64,000 nt of DNA from Dokdonella sp. (GCF_036518555.1 NZ_DATDMY010000003.1:2626-66625), one strand, 5' to 3'. Shown: positions 20,765-34,306, counted from the first letter of the stretch. Notes: a model not told the origin generated them from the letters alone. Program-made: numbers and translations.

Positions 20765-21757
20765 TCAGGACGTCGCGAAGGCGAGCAGGTCCGGGTTGAC
20801 CACCTGTGGATGCGTCGTGCACATGCCGTGCGGCAGGCCCTTGTACGTTTTCAGCGTGCCGGCCCGGAGCAGCTTGGCCGAGAGCAGGGCGGAGTCCGCG
20901 ATCGGCACGATCTGGTCGTCCTCGCCGTGCATGACGAGCGTCGGTACGGCGATCTTCTTGAGGTCCTCGGTGAAGTCGGTTTCGCTGAAGGCCTTGATGC
21001 AGTCGTAATGGGCCTTCGCACCGCCCATCATCCCCTGGCGCCACCAGTTCCAGATCACGCCCTGGTCGGCCTTCGCGCCAGCGCGGTTGTAGCCGTAGAA
21101 GGGGCCGCTCGGCACGTCGAGGTAGAACTGCGCGCGATTGGCGACGAGCGCATTGCGGAATCCGTCGAAGACCTCGAGCGGCAAGCCGCCCGGATTGGCG
21201 GCCGTCTTCAGCATGATCGGCGGCACCGCACCGATCAGGACCGCCTTGGCGACGCGACCCGGCTTCGCGCGCGCGACGTAGCGCGCGACTTCGCCACCAC
21301 CGGTCGAATGGCCGACATGGATCGCACGCTTGAGATCGAGATGATCGGCGAGCTCCTGCACGTCGGCCGCGTAGGTGTCCATTTCATTGCCGTCGTCCGT
21401 CTGCGTCGAACGGCCGTGCCCGCGACGGTCGTGCGCGATGACGCGGAAACCCTTCGACAGGAAGAACAGCATCTGGTTGTCCCAGTCGTCTGCGCTCAGC
21501 GGCCAGCCGTGGTGGAACACGATCGGCGTGGCGTCCTTCGGGCCCCAGTCCTTGTAGAAGATCTGCACGCCGCCCTTGGTCGTGATGGTCGAGTTCATCG
21601 GGAATGCTCCTGCGGGAGGGGAAGGTGAGTGCGTTCGCGGCGACGCGCTGCCGAGCAGAGGCGTCAGCGCGATGCCTGCGCCGATCGCGGCGCCGGCCGC
21701 GAGCATGCGTCGCCGCGAGGCGTCGGGCGTGCCAACATCATCGACGGGATCTTTCAT
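20765..21757 (-). CDS. cpo: Non-heme chloroperoxidase/perhydrolase (alpha/beta hydrolase) with twin-arginine-like leader
   Basis: [27 protein letters not shown] (Ser), HGEDDQIVP (Asp), HGMC (His); leader [11 protein letters not shown]; second in-frame ATG at 21598. Confidence 0.85.
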
Positions 21758-22081
21758 GCGAGGGCCTCCTCTCGACCCAGGGTGGCGGGGAATGGCGACA
21801 TCGTCTTCGCACGACAGGGTGACGCGACCGATCGACACCTCGGATCTTGCCGCACGTCCCCGATGCCTGCCGTGAGCCGCGATCGTGCCGCATGCATGAC
21901 CGCGCGCCAATCCCGATCGGGGGGTCGCCGACTTGCCCGATCGGGTAATGGTCGCGCGCACATCGCCGGCGCGGCCGCGCGACCACTGCGCGGACGCGAA
22001 TCGAGGTGCTGCCCGGCGCAAGGCGTCGACATCGGCCGCGGTCACCTCCCCGTGCGCGATGCGGGCCCAGGCCGACGGCGG

Positions 22082-22753
22082 CTAGAGCCCGACCAGCGGC
22101 TGCACCGCGCGCGCGAACCAGCCCGGGAAGCGCAGCGGCGCGTCGAGGGCGGCGACGCAGATGCACGGGCCACCCGGCGACGTGACGGGGCGATGGGTCA
22201 CGTCCGGCCCGAGGTCGGCGACATCGCCTGCACTGAAGTGCCCGAGCTCGTCCTCGTACGCGCCGCGCAGGATGTGGGTGAGTTCCGTGCTTCCGTGGCC
22301 GTGCACCGGCATGCCTTTGCCGGGACCGATCCTGAGCAGGATCAGCGTATCGCCGCTGGTCCTGGCAGCGCGAATCATCTCCACGCCCGGACCCATCCAG
22401 CGCCATTTCAGCGCGCGCCATGAGCGACCGAAGTACGCATGCAGCGGCTTTGGAAGGCCGTCGGGATCGGCGGGGAGATCGGGAGCGTCGCGCACGAATC
22501 CGCCGCGTGCCGGCGTGGCGTCGAGGCGCTCGGCCATCGCATCGCGCAGCCGCCGCTCGCGATCCACGTCCACCGGTCGCGGCTTCTGCTGCCCCAGCAG
22601 CGCGCCGCCGACGCGCTCGGCGGATGCGAGCACGGCGCGGCAATGGTGGCACAGCTCCAGGTGGGTGGCGGCTACCGCGGCCATTTCCGGAGAGAGTGCG
22701 CCCGTCGCATAGCTCACGACGGTGGCTTCATCGAGGTGGTGGCGTGGTGTCAT
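22082..22753 (-). CDS. chrR: ChrR-family anti-sigma factor (ZAS plus cupin)
   Basis: MTPRHHLDE...YATG...HLELCHHC; cupin PVHGHGSTELTHILRGAYED; ATGA overlap with rpoE. Confidence 0.9.
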   Translation of the reverse strand: MTPRHHLDEATVVSYATGALSPEMAAVAATHLELCHHCRAVLASAERVGGALLGQQKPRPVDVDRERRLRDAMAERLDATPARGGFVRDAPDLPADPDGLPKPLHAYFGRSWRALKWRWMGPGVEMIRAARTSGDTLILLRIGPGKGMPVHGHGSTELTHILRGAYEDELGHFSAGDVADLGPDVTHRPVTSPGGPCICVAALDAPLRFPGWFARAVQPLVGL

Positions 22754-23295
22754 ACCGAGTCCTGCATTCGCGACTGCAGCTTCAGGAACGCACGCCGCAG
22801 GTAGGATTTGACCGTGCCGAGCGGCATGCCGAGTTCGTCGGCGATCTCCTGATGGGATTTCGCCTCGAAGTACGACATGCGGATGAGGCGGCCCTGAACC
22901 GCCGGCAGGCTTTCGATGCGCGCACCGAGGTCGACGCAATCGGCATGGCTTTCGGCGGACGTACCATAACCTTCGCGCTCCTCCGGCTGGTCTTCCGGCA
23001 TGAGGTACCACTCCGGTTCGCGACGGATGCGATCGATGTGAAGGTTGCGCGCGATCCGGAACAGCCAGGTCGAGACGCTGCCGCGTGCCGCGTCGAAGCC
23101 GGCGGCGTTCTGCCACAGGCGAAGGAACGCTTCCTGGGTCAGCTCCTCCGCGACCGCCTCGGGCGACCCCAGCCCCTTGAGGTAGAGCCGCACCCGGGGC
23201 GCGAAGTGGTCGTAGATGCGCAGGAAGCCCTCGCGGTCGCCCGTACGCGCGACCGCCGTCATCTGCCAGGACCAATAGCGAGCATCCTCGCTCAT
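22750..23295 (-). CDS. rpoE: RpoE-type ECF sigma factor (ChrR-paired, singlet-oxygen group)
   Basis: GDREGFLRIYDHFAPRVRLYL, FDAARGSVSTWLFRIARN, SHQEIADELGMPLGTVKS. Confidence 0.9.
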   Translation of the reverse strand: MSEDARYWSWQMTAVARTGDREGFLRIYDHFAPRVRLYLKGLGSPEAVAEELTQEAFLRLWQNAAGFDAARGSVSTWLFRIARNLHIDRIRREPEWYLMPEDQPEEREGYGTSAESHADCVDLGARIESLPAVQGRLIRMSYFEAKSHQEIADELGMPLGTVKSYLRRAFLKLQSRMQDSV

Positions 23296-23404
23296 GGCGG
23301 GCTCCGGTTTCGATCGGGTCTGCGTCGGCCGAATCGGCGTCACGCGCGGCGTCATCGTCATGCTAGTGCAAAGGCGGGCCGAAGTGGGCCTCATGAGCAG
23401 CCTT

Positions 23405-23431
23405 TACGGGACGCGGTGCCGATCGGATGCA
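23405..23431 (-). promoter_or_regulatory. Predicted RpoE promoter for rpoE-chrR (autoregulation)
   Basis: Minus strand TGCATCC-N16-CGTA. Confidence 0.75.
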
Positions 23432-23482
23432 TCTGCGCGCCGGAAGGCGCCTGCGCATGTCGCGCCGGTCCGCGCGGCGTGC

Positions 23483-25006
23483 CTACAGATCCTCGAGTCG
23501 CGCGACGAGGTCGGCCGCGCGCGCGCGGATCGCAGCCATGTCGGGCTGCTTGTGGTCGAGCTGGCGGTACGTCGGCTGCAGGCGCGGATTGCCCTCGAGT
23601 GCGTCGCGATGGCGCGCGAAGAAATCCCAGTACAGCGCGTTGAAGGGGCACGCATCGACCGAGGAGTGGCTGCGCCGGTCATAGGGACACCGGCTGCAGT
23701 AGTTGCTCATCCGGTGCATGTAACCGGACGTGCTCACGTACGGCTTGGAGGCGAGCCGTCCGCCGTCCGCGTACTGGCTCAAGCCGAGCGTGTTGGGAAG
23801 TTCCACCCATTCGAACGCATCGATATAGACGCCGAGGTACCACCGGTGCAGCGCGTGCGGATCGATCCCGGCAAGCAAGGCGAAGTTGCCGATGACCATG
23901 AGTCGCTGGATGTGATGAGCATGTGCGTGGTCGAGCGACTGCCGCAGCGACGAGCGCAGGCACTCCATGCGCGTGGCGCCGGTCCAGAACCAGGCCGGCA
24001 ACGCGGCGGCGTGCCCGAACGCGTTGCGGTCCTCGTAACCGGGCATGACGCTCCAGTAGTAGCCGCGCACGTACTCGCGCCAGCCGAGGATCTGCCGCAC
24101 GAAGCCTTCGCAGGCGGCGATGTCGACGCGACCCGCGGCGAAGGCCTGCACGGCCGCATCGACGACTTCGCGTGGCGACAGCAGCTTCACGTTGAGCGCG
24201 AACGAAAGCAGGGAATGGAACAGCCGCGTCGCATCGGCGTGCATCGCGTCCTGGTACCTGCCGAAGTTCGCGAGGCGGTGGCTCACGAAATCGCGCAGGT
24301 CCGCGAGCGCCTCCTCGCGATCGAGCGGCCACGGGAACCGTGCGGCGCACGGCTCGCCGAACGTGCGCACGCCGGCCGCCTGGATCTCCTGCCACAACGC
24401 CGAGTGGTCATGGCGGGTGCGTGCGTCGGCAGGCTCGGGCGGGCTGCCCTTCCACGCCGAGCGGTTCTCGCTGTCGTAGTTCCAGCGCCCGCCGACGGGT
24501 CGCCCGTTCGCGTCGACGAGGACGCGATGGCGCACGCGCATCCAGCGGTAGAAGCGTTCGAGCAGCCAGCGTCCTTCGCCGAAGAACGTCGTCGCGTCGT
24601 CGCGGCCGCCGAGGAAATGCTCGGTATCGGCGCGATGGACCGGGATCCGCAGCGTGCCCGCGAATCGCGCGAGCTGGTCGTCGAGGCGCCATTCGTCGGG
24701 CGCCTGGTATTCGAACGCGAACGCGACGTGGAACGCGAGCAGCGCCTCGAGGTTGCCCGCCAGATCCTGCGTGTTGCGAGGATCGCCGATGCGCAGGTAG
24801 TGGACGCGATGTCCGCGCCCGCGCAAGCGGTCGGCAAACGCGCGCATCGCGGCGAACACCGCGATCACCTTCTGTGCGTGGTGCAGGACGTAGTCCGTCT
24901 CCTGCCTCATCTCGATCATCACGTAGACGACGCGATCGTCGACCGTGGAGAACCACGAGTGCCCGTCGTTGAGCTGGTCGCCGAGCAGCAGCCTGAGCGT
25001 CGTCAT
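23483..25006 (-). CDS. cryB: Cryptochrome/photolyase-related protein, Fe-S bacterial clade (CryB/PhrB type)
   Basis: LLLGDQL, HHAQKV, HAHHIQRLMV, WVELPN, SKPYVSTSGYMHRMSNYCSRC...CPFNALYWDF (4Fe-4S cysteines). Confidence 0.9.
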   Translation of the reverse strand: MTTLRLLLGDQLNDGHSWFSTVDDRVVYVMIEMRQETDYVLHHAQKVIAVFAAMRAFADRLRGRGHRVHYLRIGDPRNTQDLAGNLEALLAFHVAFAFEYQAPDEWRLDDQLARFAGTLRIPVHRADTEHFLGGRDDATTFFGEGRWLLERFYRWMRVRHRVLVDANGRPVGGRWNYDSENRSAWKGSPPEPADARTRHDHSALWQEIQAAGVRTFGEPCAARFPWPLDREEALADLRDFVSHRLANFGRYQDAMHADATRLFHSLLSFALNVKLLSPREVVDAAVQAFAAGRVDIAACEGFVRQILGWREYVRGYYWSVMPGYEDRNAFGHAAALPAWFWTGATRMECLRSSLRQSLDHAHAHHIQRLMVIGNFALLAGIDPHALHRWYLGVYIDAFEWVELPNTLGLSQYADGGRLASKPYVSTSGYMHRMSNYCSRCPYDRRSHSSVDACPFNALYWDFFARHRDALEGNPRLQPTYRQLDHKQPDMAAIRARAADLVARLEDL

Positions 25007-25050
25007 CCGCGAAGATCCTCCCGATCCGGGGCCAACCCGAGCCGGGGCTT

Positions 25051-25077
25051 TACGCGCGAGCGAGGCGACCGGATGCA
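25051..25077 (-). promoter_or_regulatory. Predicted RpoE promoter for cryB
   Basis: Minus strand TGCATCC-N16-CGTA. Confidence 0.75.
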
Positions 25078-25122
25078 GGCGAATGCGCGATCGCGTACGT
25101 CGATGGCGGCAACGCACGCATC

Positions 25123-25149
25123 TGCATCCGGACGCGTCCTTCGCGCGTA
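25123..25149 (+). promoter_or_regulatory. Predicted RpoE promoter for the DUF4397 gene
   Basis: Plus strand TGCATCC-N16-CGTA. Confidence 0.75.
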
Positions 25150-25211
25150 GAGCGTGGGCAGCCCATCGTCAAGGCAGGGTTGCTCCTGTCCCCTCGACTC
25201 CGGAGGTTTCA

Positions 25212-26063
25212 ATGAAGACCGTTCTTTCGACGGCGCTCGCCGTGGCCCTGCTCGCGGCGACGTCCGCAAGCCACGCCGATACCCGCGTACTCGCGGCACA
25301 TTTCGCGCCGTTCGCGCCGACGCTGCCCGGCACGGCCGTCTCGATCAACGTCAACGGCGGCGAAGTGCTGACTGGCGTGCAGTACAATCAGGTATCGGGA
25401 TATCTCACGCTGAGCGGGCCCGGTGTCGCGCCTGGCAGCACGCAGGTCGACGTCTACGCGCCGCCTGCGACACCGCCGCCCGCGATCTCGCTCACCGCCG
25501 ACCTCGCGGCCGATACCGACTACACCCTCGCGGCGATCGGCGACGTCGTCAACCAACCGCTCGCGTTGCTGCCGCTCGTCGACGACAACAGTGCGCCGGC
25601 CGCGGGCAACGTCAAGCTTCGCGTCGTTCATGCGGCGCCGTTCGCGGCGAGCCTCGCCGCGACCGCGGTCTCGATCCGCACCCAGGACGGCACCGTGGTG
25701 GCGGGCCTCTCGAACGTGCAGTTCGGGCAGGCGTCGAGCTACTTCGAAATTCCGGCCGGCACCGTCGATCTCGAGATCGACACGCCCGACGGCACGACGC
25801 GGCTGATCGATCCCGCGCCGGTGGCGCTTGCAGCCGGCACGGTGGCGACGTTGTTCGCCGTCGGCGATGGTTCGCAGCAGCCGCTCGGCGTCACCGCGGT
25901 GTTCGCCGACGGAACTGCCAGCTCGCTTCCGCTCCAGCCTACGGGTGGCGCGGCGCCGCATCCGGCACCGACGCTGTCGACGTGGGCAATCCTGTTGCTC
26001 GGCGCGGCGCTCGCGATGGTCGTCGCTTCGCGCATGCGTCGTATCCAGCGCGTCCGCTCGTAA
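25212..26063 (+). CDS. Secreted DUF4397-type protein with IPTL-CTERM-like C-terminal sorting signal
   Basis: Signal peptide; two repeats (RVLAAHFAP, KLRVVHAAP); tail PAPTLSTWAILLLGAALAMVVASRMRR; GGAGG RBS. Confidence 0.75.
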   Translation: MKTVLSTALAVALLAATSASHADTRVLAAHFAPFAPTLPGTAVSINVNGGEVLTGVQYNQVSGYLTLSGPGVAPGSTQVDVYAPPATPPPAISLTADLAADTDYTLAAIGDVVNQPLALLPLVDDNSAPAAGNVKLRVVHAAPFAASLAATAVSIRTQDGTVVAGLSNVQFGQASSYFEIPAGTVDLEIDTPDGTTRLIDPAPVALAAGTVATLFAVGDGSQQPLGVTAVFADGTASSLPLQPTGGAAPHPAPTLSTWAILLLGAALAMVVASRMRRIQRVRS

Positions 26064-26073
26064 GTTCATCGTT

Positions 26074-26106
26074 CGGTCGAGGTCCGCGCATCGCGGACCT
26101 CGACCG
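26074..26106. terminator. Perfect 15-bp inverted repeat between convergent genes (terminator or REP-like)
   Basis: cggtcgaggtccgcg-cat-cgcggacctcgaccg. Confidence 0.6.
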
Positions 26107-26155
26107 TTGTCGCATCAGGCCGGGCGCACGTCGCCGGCGACGCCACTGGGATACA

Positions 26156-26737
26156 TCAGTCGCCCGCCGCCGGGGCCGACGACGTCGAGACGGCCTCGGG
26201 CCACTGCTGCGGTACCCGGCGCAGTGCATCGGTCGCGTATCCGAGCGACTGCAGCTGCGAAACGAGCCGACGATAATCGGACTCCGGAATGGTCGGCGTT
26301 CGGGCCATGATCCATGCGTAGTCGCGCGCGCTGCGCGCGATGATCGTTTCGCGGTAGTCCGCATCGAGGTAGGCGACCACGTATTCCGCGCGGATCGGCC
26401 AGATGAACTGCATACCCCATACGGCGTTACCCGTGCCGGGCCGCACGTAGCCGCGCGCATGCATCGTTTCCAGCGGCGCGTCCGCGCGGCCGCTGCGATA
26501 GCGGAACGTCGTCCCGACCGTGCCGTCGTCCGCGAGGCGATAGCTCTCCACCGCATTCCACGCATTGCGCTCCGGTCGGCTCGGGATGTGCGCGATCACG
26601 TACCAGTCGCCCATGAAGCGCGACAGGTCCACGTGGCCCACTGAAGGCATCGGCGTGCCGCGACTGCAACTGGCGGCCGTGAGCGTGAACACGCTGGCGC
26701 CGGCGATGGCCGCGACGAGCAACGGGCGCATGCTCAT
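26156..26737 (-). CDS. blc: Lipocalin (Blc-like lipoprotein)
   Basis: VDLSRFMGDWYVIA, YLDADYRETII, YAWIMARTP motifs; lipobox-like TAASC. Confidence 0.9.
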   Translation of the reverse strand: MSMRPLLVAAIAGASVFTLTAASCSRGTPMPSVGHVDLSRFMGDWYVIAHIPSRPERNAWNAVESYRLADDGTVGTTFRYRSGRADAPLETMHARGYVRPGTGNAVWGMQFIWPIRAEYVVAYLDADYRETIIARSARDYAWIMARTPTIPESDYRRLVSQLQSLGYATDALRRVPQQWPEAVSTSSAPAAGD

Positions 26738-27819
26738 GCGGGCCTCCGCATGCGGTAGTGGGCGACCATCCATTCTCTGCCGCCCGCATGGCCGAACAGC
26801 TCCGCGCACGCCATCCAGAACATGCGCCAGCGCTGGGTCCAGAGCCTGGCCGCCGGACCGTAGGTCGCCTGCATCAGTGGCTCGATCTCGTCCCGGTGGT
26901 GGTCCTGGTTGGCGAGCCAGTGTTCGGCCGTGCGCTGGTAATGCCGCCCGTCGACGAGCCAGCGGCGCTCGAGCCGGAGCGCATCCTGGAACCACAGCAA
27001 GGTGTCCGCCGCCGGCATGAGGCCGCCCGTGAAGAAGTGACGGCCCATCCAGTTGTCCTCGCCCTCCGTCTCGAACGGATACATCGCCGTGCGGTGACAG
27101 AAGATGTGCACGAACAGCGCACCGCCGGGGCGCAGCCACGAAGCGATGCGCGCGAGCAGGACTTCGTAGTTGCGCATGTGTTCGAACATTTCGATCGATA
27201 CGCAACGATCGTAGGCCGACGGAGCGAGCTCGAGGCGGTTGACGTCGCAGGTGATCACGTTCACGTGGCCGAAGCCGCGTTCGCGGCACCGCTCCTCGAT
27301 CCAGGCGCGCTGGGTGCGCGAGTTGGACACCGCGGTGATGCGCGCATGCGGATAGCGCTCGGCCATCCAGAGCGTGAGCGAGCCCCAGCCGCAACCGAGT
27401 TCGAGGATGTCCTGGCCGTCCGCGAGTTCGGCGCGTTCGCCGTACAGCTCGAGCATCGCCGATTCCGCCTGGGCGAGCGTCTCGTCCCCGCGCGCGTACC
27501 AGCAGGCCGAGTACTTGAGGCGCGGGCCGAGGCAGCGCTGGAAGAACTCGGCAGGCAACTCGTAGTGTTGCCGATTGGCCGCGTCGGTATGGATCGCGAG
27601 CGGGCTGGCGCGCAGTTGCGCGATGCCCTGCTGGAACGCGTAGGCCGTCGCTTCGACACCCCGATCGCGTTCTTCCTTCAAGCGCGTCGCACACAACCGT
27701 CGGATGCCTGCGCGGATGACCGCGTCGGGCAGCAGCCCGCGCTCGGCCAGGCCGAGCAGGCCCGGTGCCGGTCGATCGGCGGGCAGTTCGAAGCCGCCGG
27801 ATAGCGCTGGTGCATTCAT
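26734..27819 (-). CDS. SAM-dependent methyltransferase, CFA-synthase-like (second copy)
   Basis: ANRQHYELP, KYSACWY, ILELGCGWGSL, VSIEMFEHMRNY, FFTGGLMP. Confidence 0.85.
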   Translation of the reverse strand: MNAPALSGGFELPADRPAPGLLGLAERGLLPDAVIRAGIRRLCATRLKEERDRGVEATAYAFQQGIAQLRASPLAIHTDAANRQHYELPAEFFQRCLGPRLKYSACWYARGDETLAQAESAMLELYGERAELADGQDILELGCGWGSLTLWMAERYPHARITAVSNSRTQRAWIEERCRERGFGHVNVITCDVNRLELAPSAYDRCVSIEMFEHMRNYEVLLARIASWLRPGGALFVHIFCHRTAMYPFETEGEDNWMGRHFFTGGLMPAADTLLWFQDALRLERRWLVDGRHYQRTAEHWLANQDHHRDEIEPLMQATYGPAARLWTQRWRMFWMACAELFGHAGGREWMVAHYRMRRPA

Positions 27820-28595
27820 CGTTCTCTCCTCGGAAACCACGGGAACAGCATCGGCGTGCTGCGTTGATAGGCTCGGTAGTCCTCGCCGCGCGTGCGCAGC
27901 GCCTGCGCTTCGGTAAACGGAATGCCGCTCAGCCAGCGCAGGAACACGTACATGAGCAGCGGACCCGACCACGCCATCCACGCGAGCGGGGAACCGACGG
28001 CGAGGAAGACGTACGCGAACCACTGCAGCCACTCGAAGAAGTAGTTCGGATGGCGCGAGTAGCGCCACAGGCCCACGCGGCATGTCCTGCCGCGGTTCGC
28101 AGGGTCGGCGCGAAAGCGCGCGAGCTGCGCGTCGGCGATCCACTCGCCGAGCGTCGCGACGAGCCACGTGCCGACGCCGGCGGCGATCCAGCCGGGGACC
28201 GTGCGCGCGTTGGCTGCGACCGCCGCGAACGGCAGCGCGAACAACGCGACGAGGAACGCCTGGAACTGGAAGAACGCGAACCACCGTCGCTGGTCGTCGC
28301 CCCAGCGGCCCCTGAGGTACGCGTAACGACCGTCTTCGCCCTCGTGCCGCACGCGCGACCACAGGTGCAGCGCGAGGCGCGCTCCCCATGCCGCGCCGAG
28401 CACGGCGAGCGCGATGCGCGGCGCGATCGCCCCGGGGCCGAGGGCCGCGATCACGACGCTTGCGGCACCAAGGCCTGCAGCCCAGGTCACGTCGACGATG
28501 CCTGCGTTGCGATGGCTGCGCTGCCACCACCACGCCGCGGTCTGCGCGATCGCCGCCAACGACCACACGATCGCGAGCGAAGCGAGCGCGCTCAT
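27816..28595 (-). CDS. DUF1295 / steroid 5-alpha-reductase-like membrane protein
   Basis: NAGIVDVTW, EDGRY, GLWRYSRHPNYFFEW, YQRSTPMLFPW. Confidence 0.85.
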   Translation of the reverse strand: MSALASLAIVWSLAAIAQTAAWWWQRSHRNAGIVDVTWAAGLGAASVVIAALGPGAIAPRIALAVLGAAWGARLALHLWSRVRHEGEDGRYAYLRGRWGDDQRRWFAFFQFQAFLVALFALPFAAVAANARTVPGWIAAGVGTWLVATLGEWIADAQLARFRADPANRGRTCRVGLWRYSRHPNYFFEWLQWFAYVFLAVGSPLAWMAWSGPLLMYVFLRWLSGIPFTEAQALRTRGEDYRAYQRSTPMLFPWFPRRER

Positions 28596-29107
28596 GCCGC
28601 GCGCTCCCGTACGGCGCGGCGATCGCGCGCGCACGTCGCGAGCAGGGGCATCGCGAGCGTCCACGCGAACGCGACCGCGATGAGCCCCGGGCGCTCGAAT
28701 GCGACGGCGCCGAGACGCGCGGCCCCGAGGTAGGCGAGCGGACCGCCCGCGGCGCCGGCGACCGCCGCGAGCCACGGCCGCCGCTGGAGGAACGCGAGCG
28801 AATGCGCGAGCGTGAGTCCGAAGGCGACCCAGATCGAGAGGATCCACACCGGCGCCGCGAGCGCCGGGCCGGGCGAGGCGTATCGCACGATGCCGCCGAG
28901 CGCCATCGTCCCGTCGACGACGACGCCGACCGCGAGGCACGTCGCGATCAGCTTGGCGTCGAGACGCAGGTGCGGCGATCGCCGCAGCTCGATCGCCGCG
29001 AACACCGCGGCTGCCGCAGGGCCGGCCCAGGCGAGGCCGCATGAGGCGCCGAGCACGGCGGCGAACCATACGCACTGGTAACCGATGATGTTGGCGAGGT
29101 TGCCCAT
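28592..29107 (-). CDS. DUF2878 membrane protein
   Basis: NIIGYQCVWF, PVWILSIWVAF, GGPLAYLGAARLGAV; operon context. Confidence 0.8.
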   Translation of the reverse strand: MGNLANIIGYQCVWFAAVLGASCGLAWAGPAAAAVFAAIELRRSPHLRLDAKLIATCLAVGVVVDGTMALGGIVRYASPGPALAAPVWILSIWVAFGLTLAHSLAFLQRRPWLAAVAGAAGGPLAYLGAARLGAVAFERPGLIAVAFAWTLAMPLLATCARDRRAVRERAA

Positions 29108-30382
29108 TCACGCCTCGACGCGATCGAGGCCCGCGAAGTAGCCGACGTCGCGGCACCCCGGCTTGGCGAGCAGCAGTTGGGAGACGCCGATCGAACGTTC
29201 GCGGAAGCCGCCTTCGCAGTAGGCGAGGTAGAACTCCCACAGGCGAATGAAGCGCTCGTCATAGCCGAGCGCTCGCACGTCGCCGAGGCGCGCGAGGAAG
29301 CGGCGTCGCCAGGCCTCGAGCGTGGCCGCGTACGAGGCACCGAAATCCTCGAGGTGGGTCAGCGCGAGGTCGCACGCGCGCGCCTTGGCGGCGACGAGCG
29401 CCGCGATCGAGGGAATGAACGAGCCCGGAAACACGTGCCGCTTGATGAAATCGACCGAGTGCAGCGCCTGTTCGTAGCGATGGTCTTCGATCGTGATCGC
29501 CTGGACGACGCCGAGCCCGTGCGCGGCGAGCAGGTTGCCGAGGGTGCGGAAATAGGTGTCGAGCCAGCGGGCGCCGATCGCCTCGACCATCTCGATCGAG
29601 ACGAGCTTGTCGTAGCGCCCGCGCAGGTCGCGATAATCCTCGAACAGGACGGTCACGCGGTCGCCGAGGCCCGCGCGCGCGACGCGCTCGCGCGCGAGAT
29701 CGTACTGCTCGCGCGATATCGTCGTCGTCGTCACATGGCAACCGTGGCGCGCGGCCGCGTGCAGCGCGAAGCCGCCCCAGCCGGAGCCGATCTCCACGAC
29801 GCGGTCGCCCGGGGCAAGGCGCAGCTTGTCGCAGATGCGGTCGAGCTTGCGTCTCGAGGCGAGTTCCAGGGCTTCGTCGGCGCGCGCGAACAAGGCCGAC
29901 GAGTACATGAGGTCGTCGGACAGGAACAGGCTGAAGAACGGATTACCGAGGTCGTAATGCGCCGCGATGTTGCGCCGCGCGCCGCGACGCGTGTTGTCGC
30001 GCAGCCGGTGCATCGCGCGCATGGCCCATCCGCCGATACGCGCGGCGCCGCCGTCGACGCCGTCGAGCAGCGCGCGATTGCGCAGCAGCAGCCGCACGAG
30101 CCCGACGAGATCACTGCAGCGCCAATGGCCGTCCATGTACGCTTCGGCCGCGCCGACCGTGCCGTTCGCGGCAACGGCGCGATAGAACGCGGGGTCGTCG
30201 ACGTGCACCTCGACGACGCCGAAACCGCCGTCGGCGCTGCCGAGGTCGACGTCGCCGCAGGCATCGCGGATCGCGAGCACGCCGTGGCGGAGCGCTGCCA
30301 GGCGCGCGAGCAGCCGCTCGCGCAGGAAGCGATCGAATGCGCCCCAGTCGGCGCGCGTGACGGGGTGGGTCGCTTCGCTCAT
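29108..30382 (-). CDS. cfa: Cyclopropane-fatty-acyl-phospholipid synthase-like methylase (UfaM-like)
   Basis: GAAEAYMDG, NIAAHYDLGN, MYSSA, EIGSGWGG, SIEMVEAIG, FIKRHVFPG, WEFYLAYCEGGF. Confidence 0.9.
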   Translation of the reverse strand: MSEATHPVTRADWGAFDRFLRERLLARLAALRHGVLAIRDACGDVDLGSADGGFGVVEVHVDDPAFYRAVAANGTVGAAEAYMDGHWRCSDLVGLVRLLLRNRALLDGVDGGAARIGGWAMRAMHRLRDNTRRGARRNIAAHYDLGNPFFSLFLSDDLMYSSALFARADEALELASRRKLDRICDKLRLAPGDRVVEIGSGWGGFALHAAARHGCHVTTTTISREQYDLARERVARAGLGDRVTVLFEDYRDLRGRYDKLVSIEMVEAIGARWLDTYFRTLGNLLAAHGLGVVQAITIEDHRYEQALHSVDFIKRHVFPGSFIPSIAALVAAKARACDLALTHLEDFGASYAATLEAWRRRFLARLGDVRALGYDERFIRLWEFYLAYCEGGFRERSIGVSQLLLAKPGCRDVGYFAGLDRVEA

Positions 30383-31152
30383 GATGCTCCTCGAGACTGC
30401 GTCGGATGGTCGTAGACCGGATTGCGCTTGAGCCAGAGGCGCAACGCGTGCCAGTGGATCGCGCCGAGCACCTGGACCGTCATCGCCGGGTAGCGCACGA
30501 GCACGCGCGCGAGCGAGCGCCCGTCGAGCGACCTGCGTCGAAGCGCCAGATCGGCGTCGAACTCGCGCTGGCCGTCGCGCACGACGTCCATGCGCACGCG
30601 CAGGTCCGCGTCCGGCGGCGTGAACGTCCAGTGATAGCGGCGGTCGAGCGGCAGGAACGGCGAAACGTGGAAGCGCTTGTCGAACTCCCAGCGCAGCGCG
30701 CGGCCGCGGCGCTCGGCGTCGGCGACGGGGAGCACGTAGGCGTGCCGCTCGCGCCACGGCGTGTTGGTGATCTCCGCGAGCACGACCTCGAGCGCACCGG
30801 CGTCGTCGTGGCAGTAGTAGAGGCTCACGGGGTTGAAGACGTGGCCGAAGTAGCGCAGGTGGGTGAGCACGCGGATTGCACCCTGCGGCGGCGCGAAGCC
30901 GTGCGCCGCGATGCGCCGGCGCACCGCTTCCGCGAGCGGGATGTCCGTCGGCGCGAGGTAGTCGCTGCGTCGGAACTGCGCCAGATTGGCGTGCCGCGTG
31001 GACCAGAACCAGCGATCGTCGAATACGCGGTCGAGCTCGTCGAGGTCGAGGAAGAGCTGGGCCATTCGATGGCGGAACGCGTACGGCGAGGGCGCGTGCC
31101 GGCGATGGCGCACGACGCCTTCGTAGACGCAGCTCGCGAGCGCCGCGCTCAC
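30379..31152 (-). CDS. DUF1365 protein (UfaO-like)
   Basis: YEGVVRHRR, LTHLRYFGHVFNPVSLYYC, EITNTPWRERHAY, KRFHVSPF, IHWHALRLWLK; GTG overlaps the upstream TGA. Confidence 0.9.
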   Translation of the reverse strand: MSAALASCVYEGVVRHRRHAPSPYAFRHRMAQLFLDLDELDRVFDDRWFWSTRHANLAQFRRSDYLAPTDIPLAEAVRRRIAAHGFAPPQGAIRVLTHLRYFGHVFNPVSLYYCHDDAGALEVVLAEITNTPWRERHAYVLPVADAERRGRALRWEFDKRFHVSPFLPLDRRYHWTFTPPDADLRVRMDVVRDGQREFDADLALRRRSLDGRSLARVLVRYPAMTVQVLGAIHWHALRLWLKRNPVYDHPTQSRGAS

Positions 31153-32456
31153 GTCGGCACGCTGCCCGCGTGCGCGAACGCCGCCGGCGCATTCGCGGCC
31201 GCGCGCGAACCGACTCCCCAGCGCACGCCGAGTGCGTCGGCGACCTCGACCGCGCTGCGCATGCCGTCTTCGTGGAAGCCCCAGCCCCAGTACGCGCCCG
31301 CGAACCAGGTGCGCCGCTGGCCCTGGATCTCCGCCTTGCGCCTCTGCGCCGCGACCGCGGCATGCGTGAACACCGGATGGTGGTAGCGCATGCGCCTGAG
31401 CACCCGCGCCGGATCGATCTCGGCGGCACGGTTGAGGCTCACGACCAGCGGCATCGGCGCATCGATCCGCTGCAGCAGGTTCATGCAGTAGCTCACCGTG
31501 CACGGCGCGCGTTCCTCGGGCCGCACCTGCGCGTTCCAAGCCGCCCAGGCCTTGCGGTTGCGCGGCAGCAGGCGCGCGTCGGTGTGCAGCACGACGTCGT
31601 TGGGCTGGTAGCGGATCGAATCGAGGATGTCGCGCTCGCGTTCGCTGGCGTCGTCGAGCAGGCCGAGCGCCTGGTCGCTGTGGCACGCGAGGACGAGCGC
31701 GTCGTGATGCTGCCGCTCCCCGTGCAGGCGCAGTTCGACGCCGGCGTCGTGGCGGCGGACGCCTTGCACGGGCGCACCGGTGCGCACGCTCACGCGCCAG
31801 CGCGCGGACATCGCGTCGATGTAGCTGCGCGATCCGCCGCACACGACCCGCCATTCGGGCCTGTTGGACAGTTCGAACATCGCGTGATTGGCCATGAACT
31901 CGGCCAGGTGGCGGGCCGGGAACGCGAGTGCGTGAGCCGCCGGGGCCGACCAGAGCGCCGACGTCATCGGCAGGATGTGGTCGTCGCGGAACGCGCTGCC
32001 GAAGCGGTGCCGGCGCAGGAATTCCTCGAGCGTCGGACCCTCGGCCTCGTCGGCGAGCAGCTGCGGCGCGAGGCGATAGAAGCGGACGAGGTCGCGCAGC
32101 ATGCCGAGGAAGCGCGGCGAAACGAGGTTGCGCCGCTGGCAGAACAACGTGTCGAAGCTCGCCGGGTTGTACTCGAGTCCGCTGCGCTCGTTGCGAACCG
32201 AGAAGCTCATCGTCGTCGGCTGGGTGGCCACGCCGAGCTCGGCGAACAACTGCGTGAGCAGCGGGTAGTTGGCGCGGTTGTGCACGATGAAGCCGGTATC
32301 GACGCGGTAGTGGCGCCCGCCGACGCCGACGTCGTGCGTGTGCGTATGGCCGCCGAGGCGCGTGTCCGCTTCGTACAGAACGACGTCGTGCTCGCGCGAG
32401 AGCAGCCATGCCGACGCGAGGCCCGAGATGCCCGATCCGACGACGGCGATGCGCAC
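31149..32456 (-). CDS. FAD-dependent oxidoreductase, amine-oxidase family (UfaD-like)
   Basis: RIAVVGSGISGL, GGHTHT, VDTGFIVHN..NYP, YHHPVF, WFAGAYWGWGFHEDG. Confidence 0.9.
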   Translation of the reverse strand: MRIAVVGSGISGLASAWLLSREHDVVLYEADTRLGGHTHTHDVGVGGRHYRVDTGFIVHNRANYPLLTQLFAELGVATQPTTMSFSVRNERSGLEYNPASFDTLFCQRRNLVSPRFLGMLRDLVRFYRLAPQLLADEAEGPTLEEFLRRHRFGSAFRDDHILPMTSALWSAPAAHALAFPARHLAEFMANHAMFELSNRPEWRVVCGGSRSYIDAMSARWRVSVRTGAPVQGVRRHDAGVELRLHGERQHHDALVLACHSDQALGLLDDASERERDILDSIRYQPNDVVLHTDARLLPRNRKAWAAWNAQVRPEERAPCTVSYCMNLLQRIDAPMPLVVSLNRAAEIDPARVLRRMRYHHPVFTHAAVAAQRRKAEIQGQRRTWFAGAYWGWGFHEDGMRSAVEVADALGVRWGVGSRAAANAPAAFAHAGSVPT

Positions 32457-32457
32457 G

Positions 32458-33405
32458 TCAGCGCTCCGCCCGCGCGAGCACCCATGCGGGCACGGGCTTG
32501 AGGTCGTGCACGAGGCCGAGTGCGGCGAGGAGGCGCAGGCCGTACCACGTCAGGTCGATCTCCCACCAGCGGAAACCCTGGCGCGCCGAGCCGGGGAAGA
32601 AATGATGGTTGTTGTGCCAGCCCTCGCCGAAGGTGAGCAGCGCGAGCCACGCGTTGTTGCGCGAATCGTCGCGGGTCGCGTACCGGCGCGTGCCGAAGCG
32701 GTGCGCGAGCGAGTTGATCGTCACGGTCGCATGGAACAGCACGGTGGTCGAGACGAAGAAGCCCCAGACGAGCATCTGCGCACCGCTGGTGCCCGAAGCC
32801 GGCGCGAATGCGTGCAGCAGGGCACCGGCGACGTACAGGCACAGCGCGAGCAGCGCCGGCGCCACGACGTCGTAGCGGTCGAGCCAGCGCAGTTCGGGAA
32901 AGCGGCCGAAGTCGCCGATGCGCGCGAAGTCGGTGCGGAACGCCTTCGGCGTGAGGAACCAGCCCATGTGGCTCCAGAGGAAGCCACGCAGGCCGGGGGA
33001 GTGCGGATCGAGCGCCGTATCGGCGTGCCGATGATGGTCGCGGTGGTGCGCGGCCCACCACAGCGGACCGCGCTGCGCGCTCGACGCGCCGAGCAGCGCG
33101 AATCCGAACTGGACCGCGCGCGACGCCCGGAACGTCCGATGCGCGAAGTAGCGGTGATAGAACGCGGTGATCGCGAACATGCGCACCACGTACAGCGCGA
33201 GCGCAGTCCACAGCGCGACCGGGGAGACGCCGACGAAGAGGACGCCGATGCATGCGGCGTGCATGGCAAGGAAGGGAACGGCGCGGACCCAGTCGACCCG
33301 GCCCTCGTCCGCGCCCGGCTCGAGCGGCCGGCTGCCGGAATCCACCCACGCGCGCACGGAGCGAATCTTAGGAGTATTCGGGATGCGCGCTTCGGTGTCG
33401 CTCAT
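32458..33405 (-). CDS. Delta-9 acyl-CoA/lipid desaturase
   Basis: His boxes YHRYFAHR, WAAHHRDHH, SLAH, GEGWHNNHH; EIDLTWY. Confidence 0.9.
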   Translation of the reverse strand: MSDTEARIPNTPKIRSVRAWVDSGSRPLEPGADEGRVDWVRAVPFLAMHAACIGVLFVGVSPVALWTALALYVVRMFAITAFYHRYFAHRTFRASRAVQFGFALLGASSAQRGPLWWAAHHRDHHRHADTALDPHSPGLRGFLWSHMGWFLTPKAFRTDFARIGDFGRFPELRWLDRYDVVAPALLALCLYVAGALLHAFAPASGTSGAQMLVWGFFVSTTVLFHATVTINSLAHRFGTRRYATRDDSRNNAWLALLTFGEGWHNNHHFFPGSARQGFRWWEIDLTWYGLRLLAALGLVHDLKPVPAWVLARAER

Positions 33406-33436
33406 GGATCGACGATCTTGCATTGGATGCCTTCAG

Positions 33437-33463
33437 TACGCGCGATGGCGTCCGCTGGATGCA
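33437..33463 (-). promoter_or_regulatory. Predicted RpoE promoter for the desaturase-to-blc operon
   Basis: Minus strand TGCATCC-N16-CGTA. Confidence 0.75.
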
Positions 33464-33479
33464 ACGCGACCGAACCGTG

Positions 33480-34247
33480 TCACAGCCGGCAGGTGCCGTC
33501 GAGCGGCGCGCGTTCGGCGGCTTCGACCTCGTCGCGGCTCGCCGGCTGCAACAGGGGATCGGCGGGGAACCGTATGACGACGCCGAGGTTGCGCCCGTGG
33601 CGGTCGCGGACAGGGCCGATGCCGCGGAACTCGCGCAGCGTCCGCTGGGCGTCGTAGACGAGCGACAGCGCGGGCAGCGCGAAGGCGTACCACGCATCGA
33701 GCTGGACGCTCATGCGGCGCAGGTCCATGCGCCGATCGGACGGGCTCGTGACGTCCGAGATGCGCACGCCGATTGTCCCCAGGCGGCTCGGCAGCAGCAG
33801 TCGGGCCGACAGCGGCGCGCCGGCCGCAAGGGCGTCCCAGTGCGCGCGGACATAGGCGTCGAAACCCGCGTCGATCACGGTATCCGGCGCGACGGACAGC
33901 GGCCGTTCGGCGCGGTCGGTGCCCTCCCGGTCCTGCCAGTAGACGTCGCGCCGCCCGGCCATCGACCGAACACCCTCGCGGTGTCCGTCGCGTGCGTCCG
34001 TGAACTCGAAATCGGGCGCGTGCGCGACACCGATTTCGGTGACCCGCTTGCGCGCGAACGGCGTTCCGTCAGGGCATCGATAAAGGACCAGCCGTTCAGG
34101 CTCCTCGTCCGCGTAGATCCAGTGCGTCTCGCGGTAGAGCAGGCGGGTGCCGTCGGGCGTGTACGCGTACCCTTCATAGCGTTCGACGGCGAACGCGGGG
34201 TTCGCAACGGCCAAGGCGACCAGCAGTACGCATCGACGGACGTTCAA
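33480..34247 (-). CDS. Secreted conserved hypothetical protein
   Basis: Signal peptide ending PAFA; YEGYAY...LYRETH, PDFEFTDARDG, VIDAGFDAYVRAHW; TTG start after GGAG chosen. Confidence 0.7.
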   Translation of the reverse strand: MNVRRCVLLVALAVANPAFAVERYEGYAYTPDGTRLLYRETHWIYADEEPERLVLYRCPDGTPFARKRVTEIGVAHAPDFEFTDARDGHREGVRSMAGRRDVYWQDREGTDRAERPLSVAPDTVIDAGFDAYVRAHWDALAAGAPLSARLLLPSRLGTIGVRISDVTSPSDRRMDLRRMSVQLDAWYAFALPALSLVYDAQRTLREFRGIGPVRDRHGRNLGVVIRFPADPLLQPASRDEVEAAERAPLDGTCRL

Positions 34248-34279
34248 TGGCAGGGGCTCCGGGCATCCACGACGATGCT

Positions 34280-34306
34280 TACGCGGGTCGGCGCCGGACG
34301 GATGCG
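34280..34306 (-). promoter_or_regulatory. Predicted RpoE promoter for the hypothetical gene
   Basis: Minus strand CGCATCC-N16-CGTA. Confidence 0.7.

What the first reader, a model, noticed from the sequence alone, without database searches (positions are those of the whole stretch)
23405..34306. Five copies of GCATCC-N16-CGTA define an RpoE regulon with a shifted -35 element
Seen: identical core and spacing at 23405-23431(-), 25051-25077(-), 25123-25149(+), 33437-33463(-) and 34280-34306(-), each upstream of and oriented towards a gene or operon, including rpoE itself. Established: RpoE-ChrR promoters in Rhodobacter and relatives are TGATCC at -35 with CGTA at -10. Here -35 is (T/C)GCATCC. 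The sigma region 4.2 reads GTVKSYLRRA, whereas I recall GTIKSRIRLA for R. sphaeroides. Inference: the Arg-to-Tyr change in the recognition helix co-evolved with the altered -35 element.
Basis: partly seen in the sequence, partly recalled or inferred. Interest (0 to 1): 0.65.

Follow-up and report, generated by a model that had tools for sequence, protein, structure and literature searches.

The report
RpoE-ChrR stress regulon, variant -35 box

Summary
GCATCC-N16-CGTA occurs five times in the window (0.11 expected). A weight matrix trained only on promoters from other genomes ranks these five as the top five sites of the whole 4.04 Mb genome. They precede rpoE-chrR, a photolyase-related gene, a DUF4397 gene, and two entry points of a fatty-acid-modifying operon. 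That operon's Stenotrophomonas maltophilia orthologue is induced 165-700-fold in a chrR mutant in an rpoEc-dependent way (published 2025).

The -35 GCATCC is not peculiar to this genome: 82 of 87 related rpoE-chrR loci carry it, while ChrR-paired sigmas elsewhere use TGATCC (51 of 55 promoters found). The Tyr is not the determinant. That position is hypervariable (H, S, T, G, C, Y) under an invariant GCATCC, and four sigmas that lack the Arg there but keep Leu three residues on still use TGATCC.

The change that tracks the promoter is Leu-to-Arg at window residue 168, equivalent to E. coli sigma-E R176, which reads the upstream G in the crystal structure. All 4-5 independent lineage contrasts agree, but they are too few for significance. 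No transcription start data could be obtained. This is a clade-level variant of a known system and is moderately interesting.

The parts
23405..23431 (-). Autoregulatory promoter of rpoE-chrR: tGCATCC-N16-CGTA
   Evidence: Exact match. Top PWM score in the genome, 28.6 bits. The same motif lies 140-160 nt upstream of rpoE in 78 of 80 Xanthomonadales loci.
22750..23295 (-). rpoE, ECF sigma factor, 181 aa; recognition helix G160-TVKSYLRRA-169
   Evidence: Pfam Sigma70_r2 and Sigma70_r4_2. Best solved relative is R. sphaeroides RpoE 2Q1Z, E 3e-30. Ungapped alignment to E. coli sigma-E gives window residue n = sigma-E n+8.
22082..22753 (-). chrR, zinc anti-sigma factor with C-terminal cupin, 223 aa; start overlaps the rpoE stop (ATGA)
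   Evidence: TIGR02451 157.2 bits (cut-off 124.5) and NF051881. Pfam Cupin_7. H-x3-C-x2-C read in the translation.
25051..25077 (-). Promoter of the photolyase-related gene: tGCATCC-N16-CGTA
   Evidence: 27.6 bits. It lies back to back with the next promoter, with the two hexamers 47 nt apart.
23483..25006 (-). Deoxyribodipyrimidine photolyase-related protein (DPRP/CryB-like), 507 aa
   Evidence: Pfam PF04244, 230 bits. The Shewanella homologue SO_4169 is a published RpoE2 target (PMC4336711).
25123..25149 (+). Promoter of the DUF4397 gene: tGCATCC-N16-CGTA
   Evidence: 22.3 bits.
25212..26063 (+). Secreted DUF4397 protein with IPTL-CTERM tail, 283 aa
   Evidence: Pfam PF14344, and PF18203 below its cut-off; TIGR04174.
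34280..34306 (-). Promoter of the smlt2375-like gene, the first entry point of the lipid operon: cGCATCC-N16-CGTA
   Evidence: 21.2 bits. The S. maltophilia loci have the equivalent site, divergent from rpoEc.
33480..34247 (-). Secreted protein of unknown function, 255 aa, orthologue of S. maltophilia Smlt2375
   Evidence: tblastn gives 38-39% identity to the gene divergent from rpoEc in L072 and L081. Smlt2375 is induced 697-fold in a chrR mutant (PMC11832516). No Pfam or NCBIfam hit.
33437..33463 (-). Second promoter, directly before the desaturase: tGCATCC-N16-CGTA
   Evidence: 20.3 bits. A site at the same position is conserved in three S. maltophilia loci.
26156..33423 (-). Lipid-modification operon: desaturase 32458-33423, FAD amine-oxidase-type oxidoreductase 31149-32456, DUF1365 30379-31152, CFA-synthase-type methylase 29108-30382, unscanned 171-aa ORF 28592-29107, DUF1295 27816-28595, second methylase 26734-27819, Blc lipocalin 26156-26737
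   Evidence: Pfam and NCBIfam hits and coordinates. The second methylase (26734-27819) was named from its translation only and was not scanned. Gene order matches smlt2374-2367, which is induced 165-507-fold in a chrR mutant and reverts in the chrR rpoEc double mutant. The desaturase is 70% identical to the S. maltophilia one.

Best explanation
The five sites are promoters read by RNA polymerase carrying the ECF11 sigma factor RpoE (22750-23295). The zinc anti-sigma factor ChrR (22082-22753) holds RpoE inactive until an oxidative or photo-oxidative signal releases it. Released RpoE then amplifies its own operon and switches on a photolyase-related protein, a secreted DUF4397 protein and a furan/cyclopropane-type fatty-acid-modifying operon, which it enters at two promoters. 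The -10 (CGTA), the core of the -35 (ATCC) and the 16-nt spacer are those of all RpoE-ChrR systems. The two upstream bases of the -35 read GC (7-mer TGCATCC) instead of TG (7-mer GTGATCC).

This spelling is an inherited trait of the Xanthomonadales RpoE-ChrR branch. It tracks a recognition-helix signature KS-x-[LIV]-R-R-A, against K-S-R-x-R-L-A elsewhere. Within that signature the informative change is Leu to Arg at window residue 168, the position of E. coli sigma-E R176, which hydrogen-bonds the upstream G of the -35 element. Tyr165 sits at a freely varying position.

Shown: motif statistics, gene identities, clade-wide conservation and the association with the helix type. Taken from the literature: sigma dependence of the orthologous S. 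maltophilia operon and of a 356-bp rpoEc upstream fragment; the motif lies about 150 nt upstream of rpoEc in three other S. maltophilia strains. Inferred: that R168 contacts the G, and the inducing signal in this organism.
For: Motif: 5 hits against 0.11 expected, and the top 5 PWM hits of the genome with a matrix trained on foreign genomes. Gene identities. No other sigma factor in the genome has a similar recognition helix. Literature on TGATCC-N16-CGTA and mapped start sites: Shewanella (PMC4336711) and P. syringae ChIP-seq (PMC5507510). S. maltophilia chrR and rpoEc mutants: PMC11832516. Three S. maltophilia loci each carry three GCATCC-N16-CGTA sites at the equivalent places.

Helix against -35, ChrR-linked loci:
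- KSRxRLA: TG at hexamer positions 1-2 in 51 (TGATCC 38, TGATCT 9, TGATCG 3, TGAACC 1), other in 4, none found in 9.
- KSxxRRA: GCATCC 82, GCCTCC 1, GAATCC 1, GGATCC 1, TG 0.

Natural intermediates:
- Non-Arg165 with Leu168: TGATCC in 4 of 4.
- Loss of Arg168 inside the clade (P0150, KSILRTA): ACATCC.
- Independent gain of the signature (P0148, KSHIRRA): GCATCC.
- RskA-linked sigmas with xxRR (L251, L006): GCATCC, while their KSWIRNG relatives mostly have TCATCC.

Tree: the non-Arg165 sigmas form one clade (SH-aLRT 99), with the Leu168 forms basal and the Arg168 forms nested. All 3-4 independent contrasts go the same way. Structure: sigma-E R176 makes two hydrogen bonds to -35G (PMC1540707). 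The register was checked by ungapped alignment.
Against: The helix signature and the GC dinucleotide are almost fully confounded with one large clade, and the independent contrasts are too few for significance (sign test p 0.25). Three sigmas with Arg at both positions (KSRxRR[SG]: P0184, P0228, P0255) still use TGATCC, so Arg168 alone is not sufficient and the rule needs Arg165 to be absent. Five other sigma-4 positions changed on the same branch (A126R, Q136R, x139R, I157M, R174Q) and could carry the specificity instead. The P0148 site has CGTC, not CGTA, at -10 and is a single locus. The change at the second base (G to C) has no structural explanation, because Ser164 (= sigma-E S172) is unchanged. 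The P. syringae TGATCC-type sigma also activates a gcATCC promoter about 7-fold, so the two upstream bases may be only weakly discriminating. In S. maltophilia the system did not protect against singlet oxygen, so the signal here is uncertain.
Confidence: 0.8

Rival explanations
1. One reading: replacement of the recognition-helix Arg by Tyr165 is the change that co-evolved with, and reads, the altered -35.
For: Window GTVKSYLRRA against R. sphaeroides GTIKSRIRLA. All GCATCC-type sigmas lack Arg at this position.
Against: The position is H43/S28/T5/Y4/G4/C3 among sigmas with the same GCATCC promoter. Four sigmas without Arg here but with Leu168 use TGATCC. In E. coli sigma-E the equivalent R173 is not among the base-contacting residues listed (0 mentions).
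Confidence: 0.05
2. There is no change of specificity. The two upstream bases of the -35 are weakly read, and GC against TG is neutral drift fixed once in the Xanthomonadales ancestor and inherited along with unrelated helix substitutions.
For: One main evolutionary event. The P. syringae TGATCC-type sigma drives aGATCC (14-fold) and gcATCC (7-fold) promoters. Basal clade members show GAATCC and GGATCC.
Against: GC is kept in 82 of 85 promoters found across many genera, and in all five independent promoters of this window and three per S. maltophilia genome. TG is kept in 51 of 55 elsewhere. That argues for selection at these bases in both groups. Three further lineage changes (P0148, P0150, L251/L006) go the predicted way.
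Confidence: 0.25
3. The sites are read by a different regulator, for example another ECF sigma (RskA-linked ECF18/19 sigmas use xCATCC-N16-CGTA) or a DNA-binding repressor or activator.
For: RskA-linked sigmas from soil metagenomes, and one from a genome of the same genus, have near-identical promoters.
Against: The window's genome encodes no sigma with a KS-x-x-R-[RN] helix other than this RpoE (one search finds one match only). The motif is asymmetric, oriented towards genes and sits before rpoE itself. The orthologous S. maltophilia cluster needs rpoEc.
Confidence: 0.03

Closest known systems
Stenotrophomonas maltophilia sigma-Ec/ChrR/ChrA with the smlt2375-2367 cluster (Ku et al. 2025, PMC11832516)
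   Same: The sigma is 61-62% identical. The helix type is the same (KSHLRRA). The same GCATCC-N16-CGTA lies before rpoEc, before the divergent smlt2375 and before the desaturase. The gene order of the lipid cluster is the same, and its induction in a chrR mutant is rpoEc-dependent.
   Different: No chrA-type oxidoreductase was identified after chrR here. Here the lipid operon lies about 10 kb from rpoE rather than divergent from it, and two further units (the photolyase-related gene and DUF4397) carry the promoter. The paper shows a MEME 'box' only as a figure. Its text does not spell out the sequence and does not contain the string TGATCC (it was absent from the hits).
Rhodobacter sphaeroides sigma-E/ChrR (ECF11; PDB 2Q1Z; review PMC6852236)
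   Same: Two-domain ECF sigma, zinc/cupin anti-sigma factor, autoregulation, a core regulon of fatty-acid-modifying genes, -10 CGTA and a 16-nt spacer.
   Different: The -35 is TGATCC and the helix is KSRIRLA. Here they are GCATCC and KSYLRRA.
Shewanella oneidensis RpoE2-ChrR and Pseudomonas syringae PSPTO_1043/1042
   Same: Gammaproteobacterial ChrR-paired sigmas whose targets include a photolyase-related protein and cfa-type genes. Start sites are mapped just downstream of CGTA(A/T)T.
   Different: Both use TGATCC. P. syringae tolerates aGATCC and gcATCC at some targets.
E. coli sigma-E region 4 bound to its -35 element (Lane and Darst 2006, PMC1540707; PDB 2H27)
   Same: The recognition helix aligns without gaps. 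Window K163, S164, R167 and R168 correspond to sigma-E R171, S172, F175 and R176. R176 reads the upstream G of the element.
   Different: A different ECF group and a different -35 core (GGAAC against GCATC). Contacts for the ChrR-type sigma are inferred, not solved.
RskA-linked ECF18/ECF19 sigmas (SigK type)
   Same: Sister families with the helix KSWIRNG or KSSIRRA and promoters xCATCC-N16-CGTA. Arg at the 168-equivalent position again goes with G at the first base.
   Different: Their anti-sigma factor is a membrane RskA type, not ChrR. None is present in this genome.

Membership tests
ECF11 RpoE-ChrR system | Group IV sigma with regions 2 and 4 only, closest to R. sphaeroides RpoE | tested here: met
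   PF04542 and PF08281. 2Q1Z is the best PDB hit, E 3e-30 over residues 4-177.
ECF11 RpoE-ChrR system | Adjacent ChrR anti-sigma factor: N-terminal zinc anti-sigma domain (H-x3-C-x2-C) plus C-terminal cupin | tested here: met
   TIGR02451 157.2 bits against a cut-off of 124.5. PF12973 Cupin_7. THLELCHHC and HGHGSTE read in the translation. The start overlaps the rpoE stop.
ECF11 RpoE-ChrR system | Autoregulatory promoter with an ATCC-core -35, a 16-nt spacer and a CGTA -10 | tested here: met
   23405-23430(-). The same architecture is found in 78 of 80 related loci.
ECF11 RpoE-ChrR system | Canonical -35 hexamer TGATCC | tested here: not met
   All five sites read GCATCC. There is no enrichment of TGATCC-N16-CGTA in the genome: 4 hits, which is background.
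ECF11 RpoE-ChrR system | Core regulon of fatty-acid-modifying genes (CFA-synthase-type methylase, FAD oxidoreductase, DUF1365, DUF1295) under the same promoter | tested here: met
   Pfam hits. Promoters at 34280-34305 and 33437-33462. The orthologous cluster is rpoEc-dependent in S. maltophilia.
ECF11 RpoE-ChrR system | Activation by singlet oxygen, organic peroxide or chrR loss; start sites just downstream of CGTA | not testable with these tools
Only the S. maltophilia orthologue has been tested, by others. It responds to chrR loss but gave no singlet-oxygen phenotype.
ECF18/ECF19 (RskA-linked) sigma | Cognate membrane anti-sigma factor of RskA type | tested here: not met
   The downstream gene is ChrR. 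RskA-type partners were seen only in L006, L187-L251 and similar loci.

The most novel reading that the evidence does not exclude
A small switch in the sigma-4 recognition helix re-specifies the two upstream bases of the -35 element from (G)TG to (T)GC. The switch is loss of Arg at the sigma-E-173 position plus gain of Arg at the sigma-E-176 position. It has arisen repeatedly: in the Xanthomonadales ECF11 branch, in the P0148 lineage and in RskA-linked sigmas. It reverts when the Arg is lost (P0150). If so, this is a natural, readable residue-to-base code that insulates this ECF11 branch from TGATCC-type relatives and could be used to design orthogonal ECF sigma/promoter pairs.
Probability: 0.4. 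Interest if true: 0.55.

Novelty: new variant of a known kind. Interest (0 to 1): 0.4.

Why it matters
The regulon itself is ordinary and adds only two lineage-specific members, a photolyase-related protein and a secreted DUF4397 protein. The useful result is comparative. Across about 240 loci, the first base of the -35 element of ChrR- and RskA-linked ECF sigmas follows the residue at the position that reads that base in the only comparable crystal structure. This gives a concrete four-mutant by four-promoter experiment on how ECF sigma specificity drifts. It also means motif scans for RpoE-ChrR regulons in Xanthomonadales, including the opportunistic pathogen S. maltophilia, should use TGCATCC and not the textbook TGATCC.

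Tried and rejected
- Dufour et al. 2008, the original cross-species regulon paper, is not held. The ECF classification paper gives no promoter sequences for ECF11/18/19 in its text. Whether the ECF Hub already lists a GCATCC subgroup motif could not be checked.
- Full-text searches: GCATCC with ECF and sigma found only one weak P. syringae site and unrelated papers.
- A metagenome scan for close relatives of the independent x/R sigma P0148 found nothing closer than 47% identity. It instead returned a large RskA-linked family, which was used as an outgroup.
- The contigs for P0142 (x/R) and P0132 (x/L) were too short or gave no convincing promoter. P0142 has only a weak TGAGCC-N15-CGTA candidate.
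- L006, a sigma from the same genus with GCATCC upstream, turned out to be RskA-linked, not ChrR-linked, and was removed from the ChrR tallies.
- Fourteen ChrR-family hits had no adjacent sigma, and one (L166) has a split sigma gene.
- Conservation of the photolyase-related promoter: none of 29 homologues in other Xanthomonadales genomes has a motif just upstream; one has a site about 1.4 kb upstream on the same strand. That regulon member is therefore lineage-specific.
- Caveat on method: the promoter finder required exact CGTA, spacing of 15-17 nt and at least 3 of 4 matches to ATCC. The two upstream bases were left free, so the association is not built in, but the 'none found' cases could hide other variants.
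- No structure prediction was run, because a sigma model without DNA would not test the contact.


Full report
**Observation.** Chance expectation is 0.11, and none of 100 shuffles reaches five. The preceding base is T in four sites and C in one.

In the whole 4.04 Mb assembly there are 14 exact hits, against 3-10 for the same words at other spacings. Of the nine outside the window, most lie in stretches with strong codon-phase GC bias, so they are intragenic.

As an independent test I built a weight matrix from 73 distinct autoregulatory promoters of other genomes and scanned this genome. The five window sites are ranks 1-5 (20.3-28.6 bits), and the next best site scores 17.8.

**What the sites precede.**
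- Site 1 lies 110 nt before a 181-aa ECF sigma factor (22750-23295, minus strand). It has Pfam regions 2 and 4, and its best solved relative is R. sphaeroides RpoE (2Q1Z, E 3e-30).
- The sigma stop codon overlaps the start of a 223-aa ChrR. This scores 157 bits on TIGR02451 (cut-off 124.5) and has a Cupin_7 domain and a zinc motif H-x3-C-x2-C.
- Sites 2 and 3 lie back to back. They drive a photolyase-related protein (PF04244) and a secreted DUF4397 protein with an IPTL-CTERM tail.
- Site 5 precedes a secreted protein with no family hit.
- Site 4, 843 nt downstream on the same strand, precedes a desaturase. After it come an FAD oxidoreductase, DUF1365, a CFA-synthase-type methylase, a 171-aa ORF I did not scan, DUF1295, a second methylase and a Blc lipocalin.

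The organism is a Dokdonella-like member of the Xanthomonadales. The closest sigma in public genomes, 91% identical, is from a Dokdonella MAG.

**Link to experiment.** The S. maltophilia orthologue (sigma 61-62% identical) was studied in 2025.
- Deleting chrR raises smlt2375-2367 by 165-697-fold and rpoEc-chrR-chrA by 19-45-fold. All revert in the chrR rpoEc double mutant (PMC11832516).
- The cluster comprises a periplasmic hypothetical protein, a desaturase, an FAD oxidoreductase, a hypothetical protein, CfaS2, two membrane proteins, CfaS1 and a lipocalin.
- A 356-bp rpoEc upstream fragment shows the same dependence.
- The window's unknown secreted protein is 38-39% identical to the gene divergent from rpoEc in other S. 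maltophilia strains, taken here as the Smlt2375 orthologue, and its desaturase is about 70% identical to the one in those loci, taken as Smlt2374.
- Three S. maltophilia loci each carry GCATCC-N16-CGTA at the three equivalent places: before rpoEc, before smlt2375 and before the desaturase.

So sigma dependence of this promoter type is supported by others' genetics in a close relative, though not in this organism. No other sigma in this genome has a similar recognition helix.

**Is the -35 really different?** Published RpoE-ChrR promoters are TGATCC-N16-CGTA. Start sites are mapped in Shewanella (PMC4336711), and there are ChIP-seq and reporter data in P. syringae (PMC5507510).

I collected ChrR-family loci from 401 genomes across the phylum and 80 sigma loci from Xanthomonadales genomes. 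For each I located the adjacent sigma and searched upstream, requiring only the ATCC core (at least 3 of 4), a spacing of 15-17 nt and exact CGTA. The two upstream bases were left free.

| Recognition helix | -35 hexamers found |
|---|---|
| K-S-R-x-R-L-A | TG at positions 1-2 in 51 (TGATCC 38, TGATCT 9, TGATCG 3, TGAACC 1); other 4; none found 9 |
| K-S-x-x-R-R-A | GCATCC 82, GCCTCC 1, GAATCC 1, GGATCC 1; none found 2; TG 0 |

The base before the hexamer also differs. It is mostly G in the first group (33 of 55) and T in the second (70 of 85). The 7-mers are therefore GTGATCC and TGCATCC. The variant is real, but it belongs to the whole Xanthomonadales branch: Dokdonella, Rhodanobacter, Dyella, Thermomonas, Pseudoxanthomonas, Lysobacter, Luteimonas and Stenotrophomonas.

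The ungapped alignment to E. coli sigma-E, together with the contact residues named by Lane and Darst, gives window residue n = sigma-E n+8. Thus K163 = R171, S164 = S172, Y165 = R173, R167 = F175 and R168 = R176.
- Position 165 is H43, S28, T5, Y4, G4, C3 among sigmas that all use GCATCC. Among the 120 closest database homologues it also takes N, A, F and I.
- Four ChrR-paired sigmas have a non-Arg at 165 but Leu at 168 (L111 KSNLRLA; P0122 and P0126 KSSLRLA; P0131 KSNIRLA). All four have TGATCC.

Tyr165, and more generally loss of that Arg, is therefore not what changes the promoter.

**Evidence for residue 168.**
- On the tree, all non-Arg165 sigmas form one clade (SH-aLRT 99). The Leu168 forms are a basal grade and the Arg168 forms are nested within them (SH-aLRT 93). 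The promoter change coincides with Leu168 to Arg.
- P0150 sits inside the Arg168 clade but has Thr there (KSILRTA). Its promoter is ACATCC: the G is lost and the C is kept.
- P0148 (KSHIRRA) arose separately inside the TGATCC clade and has GCATCC, although with CGTC at -10.
- Among RskA-linked sigmas recovered from soil metagenomes, the KSWIRNG helix goes with TCATCC (44 exact, plus TCATCT 3), ACATCC 6, GCATCC or GCATCT 5 and CCATCC 1. The two with Arg at the 168-equivalent (L251 KSSIRRA, L006 KSWIRRS) have GCATCC.

**Limits of this reading.**
- Three sigmas with Arg at both positions (KSRxRRS or KSRxRRG) still use TGATCC. Arg168 therefore acts only where Arg165 is absent, or other residues matter.
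- Five further sigma-4 substitutions map to the same branch: A126R, Q136R, x139R, I157M and R174Q.
- Phylogenetically independent contrasts number only 3-4 in the formal test. All are concordant, but the sign test gives p 0.25. P0150 adds one more contrast.
- The G-to-C change at the second base is unexplained, because Ser164 is conserved.
- The P. syringae sigma tolerates aGATCC and gcATCC promoters, so discrimination may be quantitative rather than absolute.

**Regulon breadth.** The core (rpoE-chrR plus the lipid operon) matches the published core ECF11 regulon (PMC6852236). The photolyase-related gene is a known RpoE2 target in Shewanella. In Xanthomonadales its promoter is not conserved: none of 29 homologues in other genomes has a motif just upstream, and one has a site about 1.4 kb upstream on the same strand. 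This gene, and presumably DUF4397, are lineage-specific recruits. The sigma itself is patchy within the genus, with 5 of 25 genomes matching at E <= 1e-20 (one of these, L006, is an RskA-linked sigma).

**Verdict.** The five sites are almost certainly RpoE-dependent promoters of an ordinary ECF11 regulon. The altered -35 is a genuine clade-wide variant. I did not find it described in words in the literature I could search, though a 2025 figure probably shows it.

Noticed in passing
L187-L250, L252-L259 (soil metagenome contigs); L006 (same genus, G010:C477): A large family of RskA-linked (ECF18/19-like) sigmas with the helix GTVKSWIRNG has autoregulatory promoters TCATCC-N16-CGTA about 110-135 nt upstream. 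The architecture is almost the same as for ChrR-linked sigmas, which suggests the two families share an ancestral promoter grammar and could cross-talk where they co-occur.
   Followed up: partly
L008 / L002 (G005, closest genome with the sigma, 70% identity): Here rpoE-chrR sits directly after the lipocalin gene at the end of the lipid operon and has no promoter motif of its own in the 330 nt upstream. Autoregulation there would have to run through the operon promoter.
   Followed up: partly
window 23295-23405: The rpoE leader is about 100 nt long. The promoter lies 140-160 nt upstream of the conserved sigma region in nearly all Xanthomonadales loci. An in-frame ATG at 23394 lies only 10 nt after CGTA, so a leaderless, N-terminally extended isoform (214 aa) cannot be excluded. 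Public annotations of homologues vary between 188 and 212 aa.
   Followed up: no
genome contig C73:1112-1137 (+): This is the only exact GCATCC-N16-CGTA outside the window whose surroundings lack codon-phase GC bias, so it looks intergenic. It lies 43 nt before a secreted protein beginning MNPIRFRT...SSHREAP (DUF4331-like, from memory). It scores below 14 bits on the PWM, so it is a weak candidate for a sixth target.
   Followed up: partly
L183 (P0163, JGI soil metagenome): A ChrR-paired sigma with Ala instead of the conserved Ser (helix KARLRRA) has TCATCC-N16-CGTA. This is a single case in which loss of the Ser (= sigma-E S172, which reads the second base) goes with G to C at that base.
   Followed up: no
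window 21757-22082: There is a 325-nt gap after chrR and no chrA-type oxidoreductase, unlike the S. maltophilia rpoEc-chrR-chrA operon. The next gene is an alpha/beta hydrolase with a twin-arginine leader (20765-21757).
   Followed up: no
L017 (Rhodanobacter glycinis), L034, L052: Back-to-back divergent pairs of GCATCC-N16-CGTA promoters recur in several genera, as at 25051/25124 in the window. R. glycinis has two same-strand sites upstream of rpoE (1790 and 2358).
   Followed up: no
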